A stretch of 56,858 nt of DNA. Origin: a virus (Duplodnaviria; Caudoviricetes). The notes beneath the pieces were generated by a model. It ran no database searches, had not been told where the DNA came from, and saw nothing but the letters and a program-made list of their open reading frames with translations. Made by a program: the position numbers and the translations under genes. Of the stretch, positions 23,488 through 28,649 are shown in pieces (within the stretch, counting starts at the first letter, position 1; each line of letters begins with the position of its first letter). The stretch spans positions 1-56,858 of IMG/VR virus record IMGVR_UViG_3300049841_000045, one strand, 5' to 3'.

Positions 23488-23992
23488 CCCGCAGCGACAA
23501 CGCGTCTATCGCTGGGAAGAAGACCTGACAAACTGGGCGGGCGCTCGAGCCAGCCAGAAAGAACTACGCCAGGTCATTCGTCGCTGTTGCGCGACGTATC
23601 GAGTCCCAGTTCCCCGGATGTACTTCGTTACCAAGAACCGTCGTAACGGCAAGCGGTTTCACAGCGAATACAACCCCAATCTCCACACGATCACCTTGCG
23701 CCCGCGCCACATGGACATGGGCTCCGCGATCCACGAATCCGCGCACGCGATCACCGACTGGATACTGGGGTACTGGCTCCAGCCCCACGGGAAGGAATTC
23801 CTCGGGGTGTATATCTCGCTGCTGACGAAACTGAAGATGCTCCCCAAGTCAGCACTCACCGCGCACGCCAAGTCCATGCGCTTAAAGTTCTGCGCTCACG
23901 CCCTGATCGGGCCAAAGCACATTCGCAGGCGGTTCAAGACCCGGGTGCGCAACGCACACCGGGAACGAAGAATGCTCAGGCTGTGGACGTAA
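23444..23992 (+). CDS. HExxH zinc metallohydrolase (Rv0185/TIGR04338- or SprT-like)
   Basis: DPQRQRVYRWE N-terminal motif, IHESAHAI and HGKEF. Start codon uncertain (ORF open from 23393). Confidence 0.7.
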   Translation: MRSTSVPVSRSPKHDPQRQRVYRWEEDLTNWAGARASQKELRQVIRRCCATYRVPVPRMYFVTKNRRNGKRFHSEYNPNLHTITLRPRHMDMGSAIHESAHAITDWILGYWLQPHGKEFLGVYISLLTKLKMLPKSALTAHAKSMRLKFCAHALIGPKHIRRRFKTRVRNAHRERRMLRLWT

Positions 23993-25355
23993 GCCCCTGC
24001 TGCAACCCGTCCTGGGTCGCAGCCTTGCTCTGTAAGAGCCCCACGTAATGATCATCGCGCGTGCCATCCGCTACGATGTGGTGGATACGGATATTCTTGC
24101 CGGCCCGCCTATGCCCACCCGTGAGCCGGGCGTTCACTTGCTGGTAGAGTTCCAGCGAGGGGTTAAGCCCGAAGTGGATCACGTCTTCGGCCCCCGCCTT
24201 GTACACATCGTTGAGCCCATGCCCGGCCGACGCGGGGTGTAGCACGCCGATCTCATAGTTCCCCGACGCCCACTCCACGAAGGACTTGTCTGACCGCAAG
24301 ATAGACCAGGGTCGGACTCCCTTACGCAGCACGGTCTGGATACGCTCCAGATCGTGCCGGTAGTGATAGGCGACCAACATCTTCCCCGAGATCCCCTCGA
24401 TCAACTCCTCGAGGGCATCCAGCTTCTCGGTATGGAACTCCACCCACTCCTCGCCGTCGATGTACACCGCACCGTTGGCGAGCTGCAGGAGTTTACCGTC
24501 CAGCACCCCGGCGTTAACGGCAGTCAGCGGCGTGCCCGCGACTTCCGCGGTGTACTTCTTGGCCATCTCCCGGTACGTACGCATCGCGGACTCCGGGAGG
24601 GTGACGCGGACGAACGTCTCGATGACCTCGGGCAGATCCAGATAGTCCTCCTCCCGCAATGACAACACGATGTCCGCCACGGCCCGCTGAATCTCCGGCT
24701 CCGCTCCGCGCTTGAGCACGGGGGTCTTGAACTGCCCATATCCTTCCAGATCGAACCACCGCTCCGTGAACGCCTTCTCGGTGATCCCCAGCCGTTCGCC
24801 GCGGTCCAGGAGATAGAGTTGACTCCATAGATCGCCGTACCCGTTGGGGGAGGGCGTTCCGGTAAGCTGCACCATACGGGGGAATAGCCTGCGCAGTCGA
24901 CGCATGGACTTCCAGCGTTTGGAAGACTGCGACTTGAAGGATTGCGACTCGTCCAGAACAACCAGATCCCACGGCCAGCGCATGATCTGCTTGCCGTTCG
25001 TGAGGAACTGGGCCTCGAGCCATTGGGTGTTCTCGCGGTTGATCGTGTGGATGTCCGAGGGCGTACGCATTGCGGCTACGCGCTGCTTTTCCGTGCCTCC
25101 GATGACGGATAGTGAGAGATGTTTAAGGTGCGCCCAAGTGTGGATCTCATCCAGCCAGACTTTTCTCGCCACCCGAAGAGGGGCGATGACGAGCATCCGG
25201 CGAACATCGAAGGCGGCTAGAAGATCGGAGAACGCGGTTAGCGTGGTGACACTCTTGCCAAGCCCCATCCCCACCCAGAGCGCGCAGTTGTCATGCGACT
25301 TGATGAACTCGACAGCGCGATGCTGGTAATGGTGAAGATCATCACGGTCTAACAT
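23976..25355 (-). CDS. SNF2-family helicase
   Basis: LHHYQ, MGLGKS, LVIAPLRVA, VVLDES, LTGTP, SAGHGLN, YQQVNARL. Confidence 0.95.
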   Translation of the reverse strand: MLDRDDLHHYQHRAVEFIKSHDNCALWVGMGLGKSVTTLTAFSDLLAAFDVRRMLVIAPLRVARKVWLDEIHTWAHLKHLSLSVIGGTEKQRVAAMRTPSDIHTINRENTQWLEAQFLTNGKQIMRWPWDLVVLDESQSFKSQSSKRWKSMRRLRRLFPRMVQLTGTPSPNGYGDLWSQLYLLDRGERLGITEKAFTERWFDLEGYGQFKTPVLKRGAEPEIQRAVADIVLSLREEDYLDLPEVIETFVRVTLPESAMRTYREMAKKYTAEVAGTPLTAVNAGVLDGKLLQLANGAVYIDGEEWVEFHTEKLDALEELIEGISGKMLVAYHYRHDLERIQTVLRKGVRPWSILRSDKSFVEWASGNYEIGVLHPASAGHGLNDVYKAGAEDVIHFGLNPSLELYQQVNARLTGGHRRAGKNIRIHHIVADGTRDDHYVGLLQSKAATQDGLQQGLTSTA

Positions 25356-25698
25356 CGCGCTCCCGTTTCGCTACGAGTTCCTTGAACTTCTCAAACCCGT
25401 CGCACTCGTATACATCCCAGCCCGCTTCGCGCATCTTACGCTGTTCGTCTTTCTGCGCATCCGTCGAAGTCTTACCGGGGGCCTTGAACTCCACGGCGAA
25501 CTTGTCCCGGTACTCCTGGTGCGCGAATAGGTAATCGGGCACTGAGCGCTGGGCGGGGGACGAGAATTTCCGCGCCCAGTACCCCCGCAGCCGTGCCCAG
25601 TCCACGGACTTCTTCTGAACGTCCTTCTCGAGAATGTCTTTGTGAATGGATTGTGAATCGAAAGCGTCGATAGTGAATGGGTCCCTGAGGTCTTTCAT
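25342..25698 (-). CDS. VRR-NUC domain nuclease
   Basis: EKDVQ...SVPDYLF...VEFKAPGK...Q PD-(D/E)xK pattern, next to the SNF2 helicase. Confidence 0.9.
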   Translation of the reverse strand: MKDLRDPFTIDAFDSQSIHKDILEKDVQKKSVDWARLRGYWARKFSSPAQRSVPDYLFAHQEYRDKFAVEFKAPGKTSTDAQKDEQRKMREAGWDVYECDGFEKFKELVAKRERDVRP

Positions 25699-28649
25699 TT
25701 CCGGTATCTCCTTCCCCTATGCCCGTCCACGGCCACCGGAAGCCCGGCAGCCCACCTCGGCAATTCACACATCAATCGCCCCGCTTCCTCGAAGGACCCG
25801 AAGTCTTGCGAGACTTCCGTTATGACTTCATCATGTACACTTCCGACCACCGAATACCCACGTTCTTCCAACCTGTACATGCCGTGTACAAGTAGGTCGC
25901 GGGCGGTTGCCTGAACAGCATTTTCGCAGTTATGGACTAAAAAAATTTCGCCGGTTTCCCCGCGCACGGTAAAACGTTTTAAAGGCCCTGCGTTAATCAA
26001 GTCGTAGGTTCGAGCAACCTTCCCTCTGGCCACCGTCGTCGGATGCGCTCGTACAGCGTAGTTTTTTTGATTCCGAAAGTTTCCGCCGCCTGACTCACAA
26101 CCATAACCCCCTTCGGCGTGCGTATTGCCACATTCATTCGGGTATTGCGGCCTTGTTCTTTCCGCGTCGCCCATCGGCAATTCTGTTTGGAATACCCTTT
26201 CTCGTTGTTTATGCGATCGAGAGTCAATCCTAACTGGTATTCGGCTAGCATATCCTCTACAAAATTCTCGAAACGTAGCCAGCGATTGCAAACCCGTATC
26301 CCACGCCCCCCGTAATTGCGCCATGCCTTGTGCGACGGAAGTGTACAGCGAGCACGCATACTTCGCCAAACGTGAAAGATAGGGTGCCGGGACATCCCGT
26401 GAGTTATTAATTTTTCGCCTATCAATTTGCCAGTTTTGCATCCACAGGATTTCGGACTTGGCCCTCGTGCTCGAGTTAACCCCGCTCCCCCCAAGGTAAC
26501 CGTTTTTCCACATTGGCACCGCGCCCGCCAGTAAGTCTTTCCCTTTGCGCTGTGCGAATACCCCAAGATTGTTAGGTAAACGAATTTGCGCCCGGTTAAG
26601 TCCTTCGCTCTGTGCCACAACGGCTTCTTTCCATCCCTCATCGGTTAGTACCTCGTGGTCCGGGGTCATAAAAACGCCCGCATAGGATATCACATCCCTG
26701 ACGCCTTGATCAACTAACCCACCGCTGTACACCCAAGATTCTCCATCCCATACCGCGTCTTGCGTTGTGCACAGCTCGATCGCGCGCCACCCCGATAAAG
26801 TAAGAACCTCGGTACCCTCCGCTAAACACAATTTTCCCCCGTAGGTCTCAAGCTCCATCCACTGCCGGGTATAGGTGTCAATGCCCGAGTAACGTAGCCC
26901 CGCGTCCATCTCGGTCTCGACCCACTTCGGGTCGAAGTAGGCAATCCGGCGTCCCGAAGGCAGACGCATGTACAGCCACTTATCCACGACCTTGAACATG
27001 ATCTTCTTGTTCGGGATCACGTAGGTCTTGCCGGAGTATTTCACCGCCAGATCCGCCGCCTCCTTCAGATCCTTCCAGCCTTGTACGATCTTGGGGTGGA
27101 TCGCACGCCACATCCGTTTGAGTGAGTCACAGGCGATGAACTGATCATGCGGCAACCCGGCGCGGTACTGGGGCAGCGTCTGCCACATCCATTCGGCGGA
27201 CTCACGGATCTCCTCATCGATGAATGGTAAAACCGCGTCGGCCATCTCGGCGAGATCCACGCCGTGGTTCGCCGCCATGGTAACGAATGCGGAGGCCCCG
27301 CCCTCATACCCCATAGCGAGTTCCAGGACTTTTCCCACCGCCCGATCCTTTTTATTAACTCTCGCCGGGTTAACGTGGAACGCTCGGGCATACGCTAGCT
27401 TGTACAGGTCCGGGCCTTTGCCCTCATCGAACAGCCGGAACGCCTCCAGCTTCCACTTCTCGCCGAACAGCCAGGCATTCACCCGAGCCTCGATCCCTGC
27501 GTAGTCCGGGAAGATAAAGTCCTTCCCCTTGCCGGAAACCAGCACGGAGCGTACGCACGAAGAGGCTACCTTCATCGGGTCGACACCCGGATACAGATCG
27601 CGTATCCAGCTCAACGATCGAGCGCGGAACGCCTCCATAGCGCTCTCCGGGTCTTCGATCACGGGCCGGAAGAGATTCTGGAGTTGGACGATCTGCGAAG
27701 ACCACCGGCCTGTGCCAGCTCCATGGTACAGGAACATGCCACGAAGGCGTTCATCCTTGCACATCGCGGCAAGGATCGCATCGTACTTCGTCACGGCTTT
27801 CATGTTGTACGTGCTGTAGATTTTCAAAGCACGTTCAACAGGCTCGGGGGCTTCGCCCGCCGAGACGATCTCCTTCACCGTCTCGGCCTGCATATCTGTC
27901 AGTTCCGCGTAACCGTTCGTCCGCACCCACTCCGCGATCTTCTCGCGCTGCGTCGGATTGGCGCCCGTCAACTTCACGCATTCTTCGGCGAGATAGGCCT
28001 TGTACTCATCCACCACCGCCAGGATATTCTCGATCGACTCCAAGTCAACCTTGATGCCCCGGTCGTTGATACGCTGGTCTAGCTCATAAACGAGCTGTTC
28101 GGCGGGGGAGAGATCAGGTACGAGCCGATCGATGCTACGTTCCGACTCCACATCCTGTTTGTTGTAGTCGTACAGGATCTTGAACTTCTCCGGGGAGTTG
28201 GCGGGCGTGTATCGCCCCTCGGGGTGTTTCTTCCGGGGCTTAGAGAGCTGCAACATCGTGATGCGGCCTTCCCCTGACTTCTCGACAGCCCCGAGTGCCT
28301 TCGCCGCCCCGGCCAGATCACGCGGCAGGCCATGCGCCGCCATCTTTGCCGCGGTGCAGACGCACTGTTCGATCTTGATCGGTGGGAATCCTAACTTCCT
28401 ACCGGCGACGCCGTTCAATACGACTCGCTCAAACTGCGCGCTGTGGGCCCGCAGTTCCTTGCCTGCTGCGATATGCGCGATCACCTCGGTGGGCAATTCC
28501 CGCCCCGGCGTCCATAGCTCCACCGGCCCGTCATCGAACGCATAGGCGAAGCACAACAGTTCCGTGGACTCGTGTTCGGCGTAGCGATAGACGCCTGCAG
28601 CCTTGAGGTCTACCTCACTGTAGGTCTCGATATCGAGGTGAAGTCTCAA
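25695..28649 (-). CDS. polA: Family A DNA polymerase (phage type) containing an intein
   Basis: Exo I LDIETYS, TGRWSS, motif A DYAGIEAR, motif B RAVGKVLELAMGY, ENAVQATARD and motif C VHDE. Confidence 0.97.
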   Translation of the reverse strand: MRLHLDIETYSEVDLKAAGVYRYAEHESTELLCFAYAFDDGPVELWTPGRELPTEVIAHIAAGKELRAHSAQFERVVLNGVAGRKLGFPPIKIEQCVCTAAKMAAHGLPRDLAGAAKALGAVEKSGEGRITMLQLSKPRKKHPEGRYTPANSPEKFKILYDYNKQDVESERSIDRLVPDLSPAEQLVYELDQRINDRGIKVDLESIENILAVVDEYKAYLAEECVKLTGANPTQREKIAEWVRTNGYAELTDMQAETVKEIVSAGEAPEPVERALKIYSTYNMKAVTKYDAILAAMCKDERLRGMFLYHGAGTGRWSSQIVQLQNLFRPVIEDPESAMEAFRARSLSWIRDLYPGVDPMKVASSCVRSVLVSGKGKDFIFPDYAGIEARVNAWLFGEKWKLEAFRLFDEGKGPDLYKLAYARAFHVNPARVNKKDRAVGKVLELAMGYEGGASAFVTMAANHGVDLAEMADAVLPFIDEEIRESAEWMWQTLPQYRAGLPHDQFIACDSLKRMWRAIHPKIVQGWKDLKEAADLAVKYSGKTYVIPNKKIMFKVVDKWLYMRLPSGRRIAYFDPKWVETEMDAGLRYSGIDTYTRQWMELETYGGKLCLAEGTEVLTLSGWRAIELCTTQDAVWDGESWVYSGGLVDQGVRDVISYAGVFMTPDHEVLTDEGWKEAVVAQSEGLNRAQIRLPNNLGVFAQRKGKDLLAGAVPMWKNGYLGGSGVNSSTRAKSEILWMQNWQIDRRKINNSRDVPAPYLSRLAKYACSLYTSVAQGMAQLRGAWDTGLQSLATFREFCRGYASRIPVRIDSRSHKQRERVFQTELPMGDAERTRPQYPNECGNTHAEGGYGCESGGGNFRNQKNYAVRAHPTTVARGKVARTYDLINAGPLKRFTVRGETGEIFLVHNCENAVQATARDLLVHGMYRLEERGYSVVGSVHDEVITEVSQDFGSFEEAGRLMCELPRWAAGLPVAVDGHRGRRYRK
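25929..26828 (-). mobile_element. Intein (300 aa, polymerase residues 608-907)
   Basis: YGGKL|CLAEGTEVLT (block A), MTPDHEVLT (block B), TYDLINAG..RFTV (block F), LVHN|C (block G, +1 Cys). Removing it restores YGGKL-CENAVQATARD. Confidence 0.95.
25997..26641 (-). CDS. HNH-type homing endonuclease nested out of frame inside the intein
   Basis: DLTGRKF..LT, W..RCQCG, SCGC, HGMS, WRSMRARC, YGGRGIRVC.RW..FENF..DM, LDRINN.KGY...NCRWAT..EQ.RN, C-terminal HTH. GAGGT SD 8 nt upstream of ATG. Confidence 0.93.
   Translation of the reverse strand: MRDGKKPLWHRAKDLTGRKFVYLTILGYSHSAKGKTYWRARCQCGKTVTLGGAGLTRARGPSPKSCGCKTGKLIGEKLITHGMSRHPIFHVWRSMRARCTLPSHKAWRNYGGRGIRVCNRWLRFENFVEDMLAEYQLGLTLDRINNEKGYSKQNCRWATRKEQGRNTRMNVAIRTPKGVMVVSQAAETFGIKKTTLYERIRRRWPEGRLLEPTT

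What the first reader, a model, noticed from the sequence alone, without database searches (positions are those of the whole stretch)
25929..26828. Intein with its homing endonuclease overprinted in a different reading frame
Seen: the polymerase frame runs without a stop through a 300-aa intein with intact blocks A, B, F and G. The ~215 residues between blocks B and F show no recognisable endonuclease motif. The same DNA read in the +1 frame on the same strand is a complete 214-aa HNH endonuclease (26641-25997) that starts right after block B and stops inside block F. Known: bifunctional inteins normally carry the endonuclease in frame at this position. Inference: a dual-coded selfish element in which the nuclease is made as a separate protein and the intein splices out the shadow peptide. 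With uniform codon use, 214 stop-free codons would arise by chance only about 3 times in 100,000, so selection to keep both frames open is implied. It may be an intermediate in how endonucleases invade mini-inteins, or a distinct intein class. I do not know of a description of this arrangement but cannot search the literature.
Basis: partly seen in the sequence, partly recalled or inferred. Interest (0 to 1): 0.93.

Follow-up and report, generated by a model that had tools for sequence, protein, structure and literature searches.

The report
Polymerase intein with overlapping nuclease-like gene
A self-splicing protein insert (intein) in this phage's DNA polymerase carries a second, well-conserved gene for a homing-endonuclease-like protein written one base out of step over the same DNA; the layout is real and under selection, but this kind of layout has already been described.

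Summary
The polymerase ORF (25695-28649, minus strand) runs through a 300-aa intein (25929-26828). A 214-codon ORF (25997-26641) lies in its +1 frame, between splicing blocks B and F.

It is not a sequencing artefact. The same layout occurs in 22 of 84 loci carrying a relative of the nested protein, including APSE-1 (P45/P46), Shewanella phage SFCi1 and Caulobacter phages. The host frame has 0 stops in 22/22 embedded copies. All 62 free-standing relatives have stops there (mean 16).

Selection acts on the nested frame (dN/dS 0.10 against 1.86; codon periodicity switches phase). The nested protein folds confidently (pLDDT 90.5), whereas the in-frame linker does not (pLDDT below 50). The intein ends match solved inteins.

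Two corrections:
- The "HNH" label rests on PHROG names only. No Pfam HNH model matches, no solved structure matches, and the position I recall as the catalytic His is an invariant Arg.
- The kind is already in print: non-canonical inteins with out-of-frame endonucleases (Gorbalenya 1998; Gogarten-lab preprints 2025-26). GenBank has annotated both APSE-1 genes.

Notes from this scan report the same layout on at least six other genomes. Verdict: a new member of a known kind, of moderate interest.

The parts
25695..28649 (-). DNA polymerase gene (family A-like), 984 codons, read through the intein without a stop
   Evidence: ORF; Pfam DNA_pol_A, E=4e-12, residues 257-453; 335 homologous polymerases
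25929..26828 (-). Intein, 300 aa, inserted at YGGKL|CEN ('site a'); Cys1 ... His-Asn, followed by Cys+1 at 25926-25928
   Evidence: invariant C1, T55, H58, D276, H299, N300 in 17 of 17 aligned inteins
26565..26828 (-). N-terminal splicing (Hint) part, intein residues 1-88, blocks A and B
   Evidence: AF2 pLDDT 66-96, all beta strands; Foldseek top PDB matches are intein splicing domains (Mtu RecA 2in0 E=9.9e-4, DnaX mini-intein, gp41-1; prob 1.00); phmmer match to Mtu RecA intein block B, E=0.0075
26031..26564 (-). In-frame linker ('shadow peptide'), intein residues 89-266; no fold, no family
   Evidence: pLDDT below 50 throughout; no Pfam, PHROG or NCBIfam hit; host-frame identity 0.27 and host-frame dN/dS 0.9-1.9 among relatives
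25929..26030 (-). C-terminal splicing part, intein residues 267-300, blocks F and G
   Evidence: pLDDT 90-95; 72% mean identity among relatives
25997..26641 (-). Nested ORF in the +1 frame, 214 aa. Modules: Cys4 beta-hairpin (about residues 18-68), 'YGGRGI' HNH-like module (about 82-166), C-terminal helix-turn-helix (172-203)
   Evidence: phrog_374 E=3e-60; HTH_psq E=1.3e-4; AF2 mean pLDDT 90.5; 137 BFVD structure matches at E<=0.001
26651..26654 (-). GAGG, an SD-like word 9 nt upstream of the nested ORF's ATG (26639-26641). It is written in the His-Glu-Val codons of block B
   Evidence: A start codon with an SD-like word is present in 20 of 20 embedded loci, against 17% of control windows
26144..26236 (-). 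beta-beta-alpha segment of the nested protein (residues 136-166: L-D-R-I-N-N ... N-C-R-W ... Q..N). Arg143 sits where, from recall, HNH_3-type domains have the catalytic His
   Evidence: DSSP E140-143, E155-158, H160-164; R143, Y150, N154, C155, N166 invariant in 68 of 68; weak PHROG hits to other HNH-labelled families on residues 136-170
25997..25999 (-). TGA stop of the nested ORF, inside the block F codons GAC TTG ATT

Best explanation
This is a class-1 intein in a phage family-A-type DNA polymerase. Its central ~215 codons do double duty.

Read in the polymerase frame, they give a structureless linker. Its only requirement is to have no stop codon, so the precursor is made whole and the two Hint halves can splice it out.

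Read one base downstream, they are an independent gene with its own Shine-Dalgarno-like word and ATG, both embedded in block B codons. Its stop lies in block F. The gene encodes a 214-aa member of a huge phage family of modular, homing-endonuclease-like proteins: a Zn hairpin, an HNH-like 'YGGRGI' module and an HTH.

The nested protein is the part under purifying selection. The host frame is kept open purely by synonymous choice in the nested frame: no codon ending in T ever precedes a codon starting AA, AG or GA.

The most likely history is that a free-standing endonuclease-type gene settled in the loop of an intein. Intein and gene have since spread together by homing between polymerase genes (two sites 3 codons apart in the DNA I examined) and into a helicase gene.

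Shown:
- the anatomy;
- conservation of the layout;
- the direction of selection;
- the fold predictions;
- that the closest polymerase relative lacks the intein.

Inferred:
- splicing;
- separate translation of the nested ORF;
- DNA cleavage and homing by the nested protein.
For: 1. Layout conserved. In 22 of 84 loci holding a relative of the nested protein, the match lies wholly inside a long ORF in the -1 frame. All 22 show C..T.VLT ... HN|C intein ends. These include APSE-1, where P45 polymerase and P46 'HNH endonuclease' are annotated as overlapping CDSs, Shewanella SFCi1 and Caulobacter GB2A.

2. Stop avoidance. Host-frame stops are 0 in 22/22 embedded copies and at least 1 in 62/62 free-standing copies (mean 16.4). 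T at nested codon position 3 before AA/AG/GA codons has frequency 0.000, against 0.187 elsewhere, in embedded copies. In free-standing copies the figures are 0.290 and 0.287.

3. Selection. Identity in the overlap is 0.455 in the nested frame and 0.266 in the host frame. Nucleotide diversity by nested codon position is 0.44/0.40/0.61, so the most variable base is host position 1. In the Hint and extein parts the host's third position is the most variable. For the closest pair (L011/L015), dN/dS is 0.10 in the nested frame and 1.86 in the host frame. Nine further pairs that gave a value show 0.15-0.38 against 0.90-1.57.

4. Folds. The nested frame has pLDDT 90.5. The intein frame has residues 1-88 and 267-300 mostly above 90 and residues 89-266 below 50. 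The intein model's best PDB matches are inteins, prob 1.00.

5. Own start. 20 of 20 loci have ATG/GTG/TTG with an SD-like word 4-16 nt upstream, against 17% of control windows.

6. Mobility signs. The closest polymerase relative found in viral contigs (L085, 55% identity) is intein-less, reading YGGKL-DENAVQA. Of 120 listed polymerase homologues, 61 have a regex-detected intein and 41 have an uninterrupted site. Hint (0.46/0.72) and nested-protein (0.455) identities exceed those of the flanking exteins (0.27/0.36). GC is 0.51-0.53 in the intein against 0.57-0.63 in the flanks. All 20 embedded copies on the tree fall with 6 free-standing ones on one side of a branch with 98% SH-aLRT (quick tree).

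7. No group I intron or other Rfam family in 25500-27300 at E<=1.
Against: Nuclease identity is weak. 0 of 68 family members hit any Pfam HNH family at E<=1. A family profile finds no PDB sequence. Foldseek of the confident model finds no PDB structure at E<=0.001. Arg143 is invariant in 68/68 at the position where, from recall, HNH_3-type domains have Asp-His.

The same module occurs next to bona fide catalytic domains: GIY-YIG in P0047 and HNH_3 in P0016 and P0040. It also occurs in 2-3 tandem copies in 10 of 56 longer relatives and in up to 11 matched stretches per protein. That pattern is more typical of DNA-binding modules.

Pfam and NCBIfam intein models do not reach threshold on the intein.

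No expression or splicing data exist. No RNA run was listed, and read laying was uninformative.

Two database proteins (P0009, P0025) read from the polymerase and Hint-N straight into the nested frame. Fused or frameshifted forms therefore exist or are mis-assembled.

The tree is a quick search only, because the careful search did not finish.
Confidence: 0.75

Rival explanations
1. The nested protein is not a nuclease. It is an HNH-derived, catalytically inactive site-specific DNA-binding protein made of Zn hairpin, degenerate beta-beta-alpha module and HTH. It would either recruit or guide a nuclease encoded elsewhere (collaborative or trans homing), or act as a regulator. The intein serves only as a harmless landing pad.
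For: Arg is invariant at the position where, from recall, HNH_3 domains have the general-base His, in 68/68 members. There is no Pfam HNH hit in 0/68 and no PDB sequence or fold match. The module co-occurs with GIY-YIG plus the I-TevI DNA-binding domain (P0047), with HNH_3 (P0016, P0040) and with AP2 (P0017). Tandem copies occur. BFVD neighbours carry mixed names such as 'DNA-binding domain protein', 'AP2/ERF domain' and 'HTH homing endonuclease'. The nearest Atlas clusters with a Pfam family carry NUMOD modules, at scores of 0.90 or below, so these are leads only.
Against: The protein sits where inteins carry their endonuclease. It is under strong purifying selection. The element shows the sporadic, multi-site, multi-gene distribution expected of active homing. 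Four PHROG families matching at E<=1e-21 are labelled HNH endonuclease. Weak hits to other HNH-labelled PHROGs fall exactly on the beta-beta-alpha segment. A conserved acid at position 142 and conserved N154, Q163 and N166 remain.
Confidence: 0.2
2. The nested domain is expressed by ribosomal frameshifting from the polymerase/intein frame, giving an N-extein-HintN-nuclease fusion, rather than by internal initiation.
For: Two database proteins (P0009, 748 aa; P0025, 857 aa) have the polymerase N-part and Hint blocks A and B continuous with the C-terminal ~170 residues of the nested protein, and they end at its stop.
Against: In both proteins the junction lies about 25-30 codons inside the overlap and skips the nested protein's conserved N-terminal hairpin. 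Each rests on one contig, so a frameshift mutation or an assembly error is the simpler reading. A start codon with an SD-like word is present in 20/20 loci. Free-standing relatives of the same length exist (62 loci). I did not run a dedicated search for a conserved slippery site.
Confidence: 0.04
3. Artefact or decay: two compensating indel errors, or an old in-frame endonuclease intein whose reading frame drifted and is now a relic.
For: Canonical bifunctional inteins carry the endonuclease in frame.
Against: The same +1 relation is found in 22 independent loci at about 45% identity, including four groups of sequenced isolates. The nested frame has dN/dS 0.10. T-ending codons are completely avoided at 981 at-risk junctions. 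The start and stop lie at conserved places. None of 56 longer relatives is a canonical in-frame version.
Confidence: 0.01

Closest known systems
Actinobacteriophage 'non-canonical' inteins (Gosselin, Arsenault, Gogarten; bioRxiv 10.1101/2025.01.02.630785; passages and section 15 read)
   Same: The homing-endonuclease ORF lies between the splicing blocks but outside the intein's frame. The in-frame linker has no recognisable structure. The endonuclease has free-standing relatives. The proposed origin is invasion of an intein by a free-standing gene. Continued horizontal spread is inferred.
   Different: Their same-strand out-of-frame case is an endonuclease VII-like gene in 'frame 3'. Their other cases are antisense LAGLIDADG or VSR-like genes, and their HNH inteins are in frame. 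Hosts are actinophage terminase, capsid, ThyX and DNA polymerase genes. Here the gene is an HNH-like 'YGGRGI' family member in frame +1, in polA-type polymerases and a helicase; the sequenced isolates with this layout infect Hamiltonella, Shewanella and Caulobacter.
[quoted passage not shown] That text cites Gorbalenya 1998, 'Non-canonical inteins', which is not held
   Same: The overlapping ORF inside the intein is under purifying selection while the intein-frame dN/dS is inflated. A secondary invasion of a mini-intein is proposed.
   Different: That case is a LAGLIDADG enzyme in a +2 ORF of a bacterial chromosomal gene, and mini-intein alleles coexist with it. I found no mini-intein among 61 regex-detected polymerase inteins (229-317 aa).
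APSE-1 (Hamiltonella phage) P45 DNA polymerase / P46, GenBank NC_000935. The intein is mentioned for APSE polymerases in PMC7313666 (passage read)
   Same: A direct homologue. The intein is at the same YGGK|C site, and the nested ORF is in the same +1 frame, 48% identical to the window's. [quoted passage not shown]
   Different: The record annotates P46 only from an internal ATG (141 aa), although the open frame is 222 codons. None of the papers I could search discusses the overlap. The original 1999 description is not held.
ShiLan domain: hidden out-of-frame HNH in a phage DNA methylase (Arsenault et al. 2025, PMC11855218; abstract and passages read)
   Same: An out-of-frame HNH-type gene lies inside a host ORF that stays open. 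There is an internal start a few codons into the insert and a stop at its very end.
   Different: That insert has no splicing domains, so it stays in the host protein. Here Hint halves flank the insert.
Fractured genes: split inteins flanking a free-standing endonuclease gene (Dassa et al. 2009, PMC2677866; passages read)
   Same: A free-standing endonuclease gene is associated with intein halves, and its coding region overlaps the intein part.
   Different: There the host gene is physically split and trans-spliced. Here the precursor is continuous.

Membership tests
Intein (Hint-domain protein-splicing element, class 1) | N-terminal Cys/Ser nucleophile (block A) directly after the N-extein | tested here: met
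   Cys1 at 26828-26826; invariant in 17 of 17 aligned relatives
Intein (Hint-domain protein-splicing element, class 1) | Block B Thr-x-x-His | tested here: met
   T55-P-D-H58; T55 and H58 invariant in 17/17; aligns with block B of the Mtu RecA intein
Intein (Hint-domain protein-splicing element, class 1) | Block F Asp and terminal His-Asn (block G), followed by a Cys/Ser/Thr +1 residue | tested here: met
   D276, H299 and N300 invariant in 17/17; Cys+1 present in all 20 full embedded loci (L013 after the correction)
Intein (Hint-domain protein-splicing element, class 1) | Hint fold | tested here: met
   AF2 model is confident for residues 1-88 and 267-300. The Foldseek PDB matches down to E about 3 (ranks 1-37 as listed) are inteins or Hint/Vint/BIL domains, with prob about 1.00 for the best ~30
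Intein (Hint-domain protein-splicing element, class 1) | Match to curated intein sequence models | tested here: inconclusive
   No Pfam intein family at E<=0.1 on the whole polymerase. NCBIfam NF007072 matches at E=0.0042, 15.5 bits, far below its cut-off
Intein (Hint-domain protein-splicing element, class 1) | Protein splicing demonstrated | not testable with these tools
   Inferred only, because an essential polymerase would otherwise be interrupted in over 20 phage lineages
HNH (beta-beta-alpha-Me) endonuclease | Match to curated HNH sequence models | tested here: not met
   0 of 68 members hit any Pfam HNH family at E<=1; no NCBIfam hit. Only PHROG families whose label is 'HNH endonuclease' match (phrog_374, E=3e-60)
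HNH (beta-beta-alpha-Me) endonuclease | General-base His at the end of strand 1 (the first H of H-N-H) | tested here: not met
   Position 143 is Arg in 68 of 68 aligned members, in the motif (D/E)-R-I/R. That HNH_3-type domains have Asp-His here is recalled, not computed
HNH (beta-beta-alpha-Me) endonuclease | beta-beta-alpha topology with conserved Asn residues | tested here: inconclusive
   DSSP gives strands 140-143 and 155-158 and helix 160-164. N154 and N166 are invariant and Q163 is at least 90% conserved. The topology fits, but the model's geometry was not inspected
HNH (beta-beta-alpha-Me) endonuclease | Structural similarity to a solved HNH nuclease | tested here: not met
   Foldseek against PDB: 0 matches at E<=0.001, and the best hits are unrelated. 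Profile against PDB sequences: nothing
HNH (beta-beta-alpha-Me) endonuclease | DNA cleavage | not testable with these tools
   I found no experimental paper on this family in 7 literature searches. None of these searches was aimed at the module by name
[quoted passage not shown] | Endonuclease-type ORF lies between the splicing blocks in another frame, and the host frame stays open | tested here: met
[quoted passage not shown] | In-frame linker without structure; nested-frame product well folded | tested here: met
[quoted passage not shown] | Purifying selection on the nested frame, not on the linker | tested here: met
[quoted passage not shown] | Free-standing relatives of the nested gene exist | tested here: met
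   62 free-standing loci. 6 of them group with the embedded copies
[quoted passage not shown] | Sporadic distribution relative to the host gene (ongoing homing) | tested here: inconclusive
   The closest relative is intein-less. Three polymerase sites plus a helicase host are seen. No extein-versus-intein topology test was run

The most novel reading that the evidence does not exclude
The out-of-frame layout may be a stable end state rather than a short-lived intermediate. On this reading, one intein lineage has radiated across many phage polymerases (three insertion sites) and into a helicase without the nested gene ever moving into frame. Its 'endonuclease' would be an HNH-derived module that has lost the canonical catalytic His. 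Mobility would then rest on a non-canonical catalytic mechanism, or on a DNA-targeting protein that borrows a nuclease in trans.
Probability: 0.2. Interest if true: 0.6.

Novelty: new member of a known kind. Interest (0 to 1): 0.4.

Why it matters
It adds a large, easily testable lineage to the recently described non-canonical inteins. Several cultured phages carry it: Caulobacter phages GB2A, RW, RLK and KcrB, Shewanella SFCi1 and the APSE phages.

It shows concretely how two frames coexist at almost no cost. A +1 overprint needs only that T-ending codons be avoided before AA/AG/GA codons, which is always a synonymous choice.

It warns annotators on three points:
- A 'linker' in a phage intein can hide a gene.
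- APSE-1 P46 is probably annotated too short.
- The 'HNH endonuclease' label carried by this very large phage family rests on names rather than on a demonstrated catalytic motif. The family has about 200,000 representative clusters at E<=0.001.

Tried and rejected
Group I intron instead of an intein: no Rfam match in 25500-27300 at E<=1, and the frame is continuous. Rejected.

Sequencing error: rejected by conservation of the layout.

Read-level check: the look-up of sequencing runs listed two DNA holders and no RNA holder. In read laying, the probable source run X1 gave no laid contig. X2 gave two 151-nt contigs, 100% identical, covering 25700-25807 and 25851-26001 only. This says nothing about the overlap or about expression.

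I described them from the protein sequences only.

Mini-intein ancestor at the same site: none among 61 regex-detected inteins (229-317 aa). The regex may miss divergent ones, and 18 of the 120 proteins were classed neither way.

Shadow-motif proxy for the nested gene in protein-only hits: 43 of 120, against 1 of 41 intein-less controls. This is only a proxy, because the DNA was not seen.

Tree: only the quick IQ-TREE search finished. L025 (partial) and L021 (identical to L019) were left out. No rooted inference is drawn.

Atlas search: the nearest clusters have no common Pfam family. NUMOD-bearing clusters score 0.90 or below, so they are leads only.

Papers not held: van der Wilk 1999 and Gorbalenya 1998. 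What I say of them comes from citations in other papers or from recall.

'Not in print' claim: it rests on searches only. These found no paper describing a same-strand out-of-frame HNH-type gene inside a polymerase intein.

Full report
**What is there.** On the minus strand, a 984-codon ORF (25695-28649) encodes a family-A-type DNA polymerase (Pfam DNA_pol_A, E=4e-12). After ...TYGGKL it continues with Cys (26828) and a 300-aa insert ending ...LVHN (25929), followed by Cys-Glu-Asn. A 214-codon ORF (ATG 26641, TGA ending at 25997) lies inside the insert, one base downstream of the polymerase frame. It begins right after block B (T-P-D-H-E-V-L-T) and its stop lies in the block F codons.

**The two readings of the same DNA.**
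- The +1 ORF matches phrog_374 at E=3e-60 and three further PHROGs at E<=1e-32, all labelled HNH endonuclease. Pfam sees only a C-terminal helix-turn-helix.
- The polymerase-frame translation of the same stretch matches nothing in Pfam, PHROGs or NCBIfam.
- AlphaFold2 with a 68-sequence alignment gives the nested protein a mean pLDDT of 90.5.
- With a 17-sequence alignment, the intein frame is confident only for residues 1-88 and 267-300. Residues 89-266 stay below 50.
- The confident intein ends are a Hint fold. The listed Foldseek PDB matches down to E about 3 are inteins or Hint relatives, with probability about 1.00 for the best ~30 (Mtu RecA, DnaX mini-intein, gp41-1, DnaB, DnaE).
- C1, T55, H58, D276, H299 and N300 are invariant in 17 of 17 relatives.

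**Not an artefact: the layout is conserved.** A tblastn of the nested protein against GenBank phages puts its best hits inside annotated DNA polymerase genes of APSE-1 to APSE-7, Shewanella phage SFCi1 and four Caulobacter phages. In each of the three I opened, the match is in the +1 frame of the polymerase CDS. APSE-1 even has the overlapping CDS annotated: P46, 'HNH endonuclease', inside P45.

A scan of IMG/VR with an alignment of the nested proteins returned 80 loci. Over all 84 sequences (80 IMG/VR loci, 3 GenBank loci, the window):
- 22 have the match entirely inside a long ORF in the -1 frame;
- 62 are free-standing genes whose other frames are closed.

All 22 embedded cases show intein ends. 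Their hosts are:
- 14 at polymerase site a (YGGKL|CEN);
- 6 at polymerase site b, three codons downstream (...EN|C-x-Q-A);
- 2 (L013, L014) in an SNF2-like helicase gene.

**How both frames stay open.** A host-frame stop can only arise where a nested codon ending in T precedes one beginning AA, AG or GA. In the 22 embedded copies, T at such junctions has frequency 0.000, against 0.187 at all other junctions. In the 62 free-standing copies the figures are 0.290 and 0.287. Those copies carry 1-41 host-frame stops (mean 16.4), and none has zero. Given the window ORF's own T3 frequency and its 47 at-risk junctions, the chance of no stop is 3.7e-6. The constraint is met entirely by synonymous choices, so the nested protein pays almost nothing.

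**Which frame is selected.** In the overlap, mean pairwise identity among 20 elements is 0.455 in the nested frame and 0.266 in the host frame. Nucleotide diversity is highest at nested codon position 3 (0.61, against 0.44 and 0.40), which is host position 1. In the Hint parts and exteins, the host's own third position is the most variable. For the closest pair (L011/L015), dN/dS is 0.10 in the nested frame and 1.86 in the host frame. Of the 11 other pairs examined, 9 give 0.15-0.38 against 0.90-1.57, and in 3 the nested-frame dS was saturated.

**Expression signals.** All 20 embedded loci examined have an ATG, GTG or TTG 5-13 codons before the conserved D-L-T-G motif, with an SD-like word 4-16 nt upstream. 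The same loose test is met by 17% of windows inside the gene body. Most loci use one of two start positions:
- one 10-13 codons before the motif, behind a GAGG or AAGG word in the block B His-Glu/Lys-Val codons (the window uses this one);
- one 6 codons before the motif, mostly behind the Glu/Lys-Gly-Trp codons.

Actual translation is not shown.

**Signs of mobility.**
- The closest polymerase relative found in viral contigs (L085, 55% identity) has an uninterrupted YGGKL-DENAVQA site.
- Among 120 listed polymerase homologues, 61 have a regex-detected intein of 229-317 aa. These include a third site in the GKV-x-EL motif.
- 41 of the 120 are intein-less, and 20 of those already have Cys at the +1 position.
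- Hint and nested-protein identities exceed those of the flanking exteins.
- The intein is 5-10 points lower in GC than the flanks.
- On a quick tree, all 20 embedded copies fall with 6 free-standing ones on one side of a 98% SH-aLRT branch, and 56 free-standing copies fall on the other side.
- No in-frame version turned up: none of 56 longer relatives has block A, the nested domain and block G in one frame.

**Is it an HNH nuclease?** This is the weak point.
- None of 68 family members hits a Pfam HNH model at E<=1.
- A family profile finds no PDB sequence.
- The confident model finds no PDB structure at E<=0.001.
- The segment L-D-R-I-N-N...N-C-R-W...Q..N is predicted as strand-strand-helix. 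From recall, it resembles the HNH_3 motif, but the residue where I recall the catalytic His is Arg in 68 of 68 sequences.
- The module also occurs beside real catalytic domains: GIY-YIG in P0047 and HNH_3 in P0016 and P0040.
- It occurs in tandem copies, as DNA-binding modules of homing endonucleases do.
- The family is enormous: 200,639 representative clusters at E<=0.001. Its viral structure neighbours carry mixed names.

I therefore call it 'HNH-like, homing-endonuclease-type' and give about 0.2 to the rival that it binds DNA but does not cut.

**Comparison with what is known.** Inteins whose endonuclease lies in another frame or strand were named 'non-canonical inteins' by Gorbalenya in 1998. 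That paper is cited but is not held.

The Gogarten group's preprint of 2025 (version read dated October 2025) describes actinophage inteins with antisense LAGLIDADG or VSR-like genes and a same-strand 'frame 3' endonuclease VII-like gene. It proposes invasion of inteins by free-standing endonuclease genes and notes that such cases are probably overlooked. A 2026 preprint shows the same selection pattern for an out-of-frame LAGLIDADG gene in cyanobacterial DnaX inteins. A 2025 paper describes a hidden out-of-frame HNH in a phage methylase that has no intein.

In seven searches I found no paper describing this particular combination: a same-strand +1 HNH-like gene in polA-type polymerase inteins. 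APSE-1's two CDSs are annotated as overlapping in the GenBank/RefSeq record, and loss of the APSE polymerase intein is mentioned in PMC7313666.

Notes from earlier runs of this scan report the same layout on at least six other genomes. I treat those as leads, not evidence. My own tests reach the same verdict.

**Verdict.** This is a new member of a known kind, of moderate interest, with an open and testable question about whether the nested protein cuts DNA.

Noticed in passing
L013:3269-4210 and L014:2419-3345 (IMG/VR loci); window 23976-25355: The same intein type, with the same +1 nested ORF, sits in an SNF2-like helicase gene in two viral contigs (...VHN|C followed by helicase C-terminal motifs). 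The window's own helicase next to the polymerase (459 aa) shows no such insert in its listed translation.
   Followed up: partly
Proteins P0064, P0084, P0068, P0174, P0166: There is a third insertion site for a ~285-291-aa intein in homologous polymerases, inside the GKV-x-EL|...|GY-x-GG motif. Whether these also hide a +1 ORF could not be checked, because no DNA was available.
   Followed up: no
41 intein-less polymerase homologues: 20 of 41 intein-less alleles already have Cys at the +1 position of site a (YGGKLCEN). Others have D, T, A or V there. This could be a footprint of precise intein loss or a pre-adapted homing site.
   Followed up: no
Proteins P0009 (748 aa) and P0025 (857 aa): Polymerase N-part plus Hint blocks A and B run, after about 25 linker residues, straight into the nested protein's frame and end at its stop. 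These are frameshifted, fused or mis-assembled variants. Each rests on one contig.
   Followed up: partly
Proteins P0001, P0002, P0016, P0040, P0047, P0017; one search list: The 'YGGRGI' module and its Cys4 hairpin are highly modular. There are 2-3 tandem modules per protein and up to 11 matched stretches. The module is combined with GIY-YIG plus the I-TevI DNA-binding domain, with HNH_3 or with AP2. The family has about 200,000 representative clusters.
   Followed up: partly
L001:2477-3142 (APSE-1, NC_000935): The annotated P46 CDS (L001 2723-3145, 141 aa) covers only the C-terminal two-thirds of a 222-codon open frame. The conserved N-terminal hairpin and a GTG start with an SD-like word lie upstream, so P46 is probably annotated too short.
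   Followed up: partly
window 25650-26850: GC is 0.51-0.53 across the intein, against 0.57-0.63 in the flanking polymerase and helicase genes.
   Followed up: no
A protein search of the whole record found only one copy of the nested protein's family, so that gene would belong to a different family.
   Followed up: no
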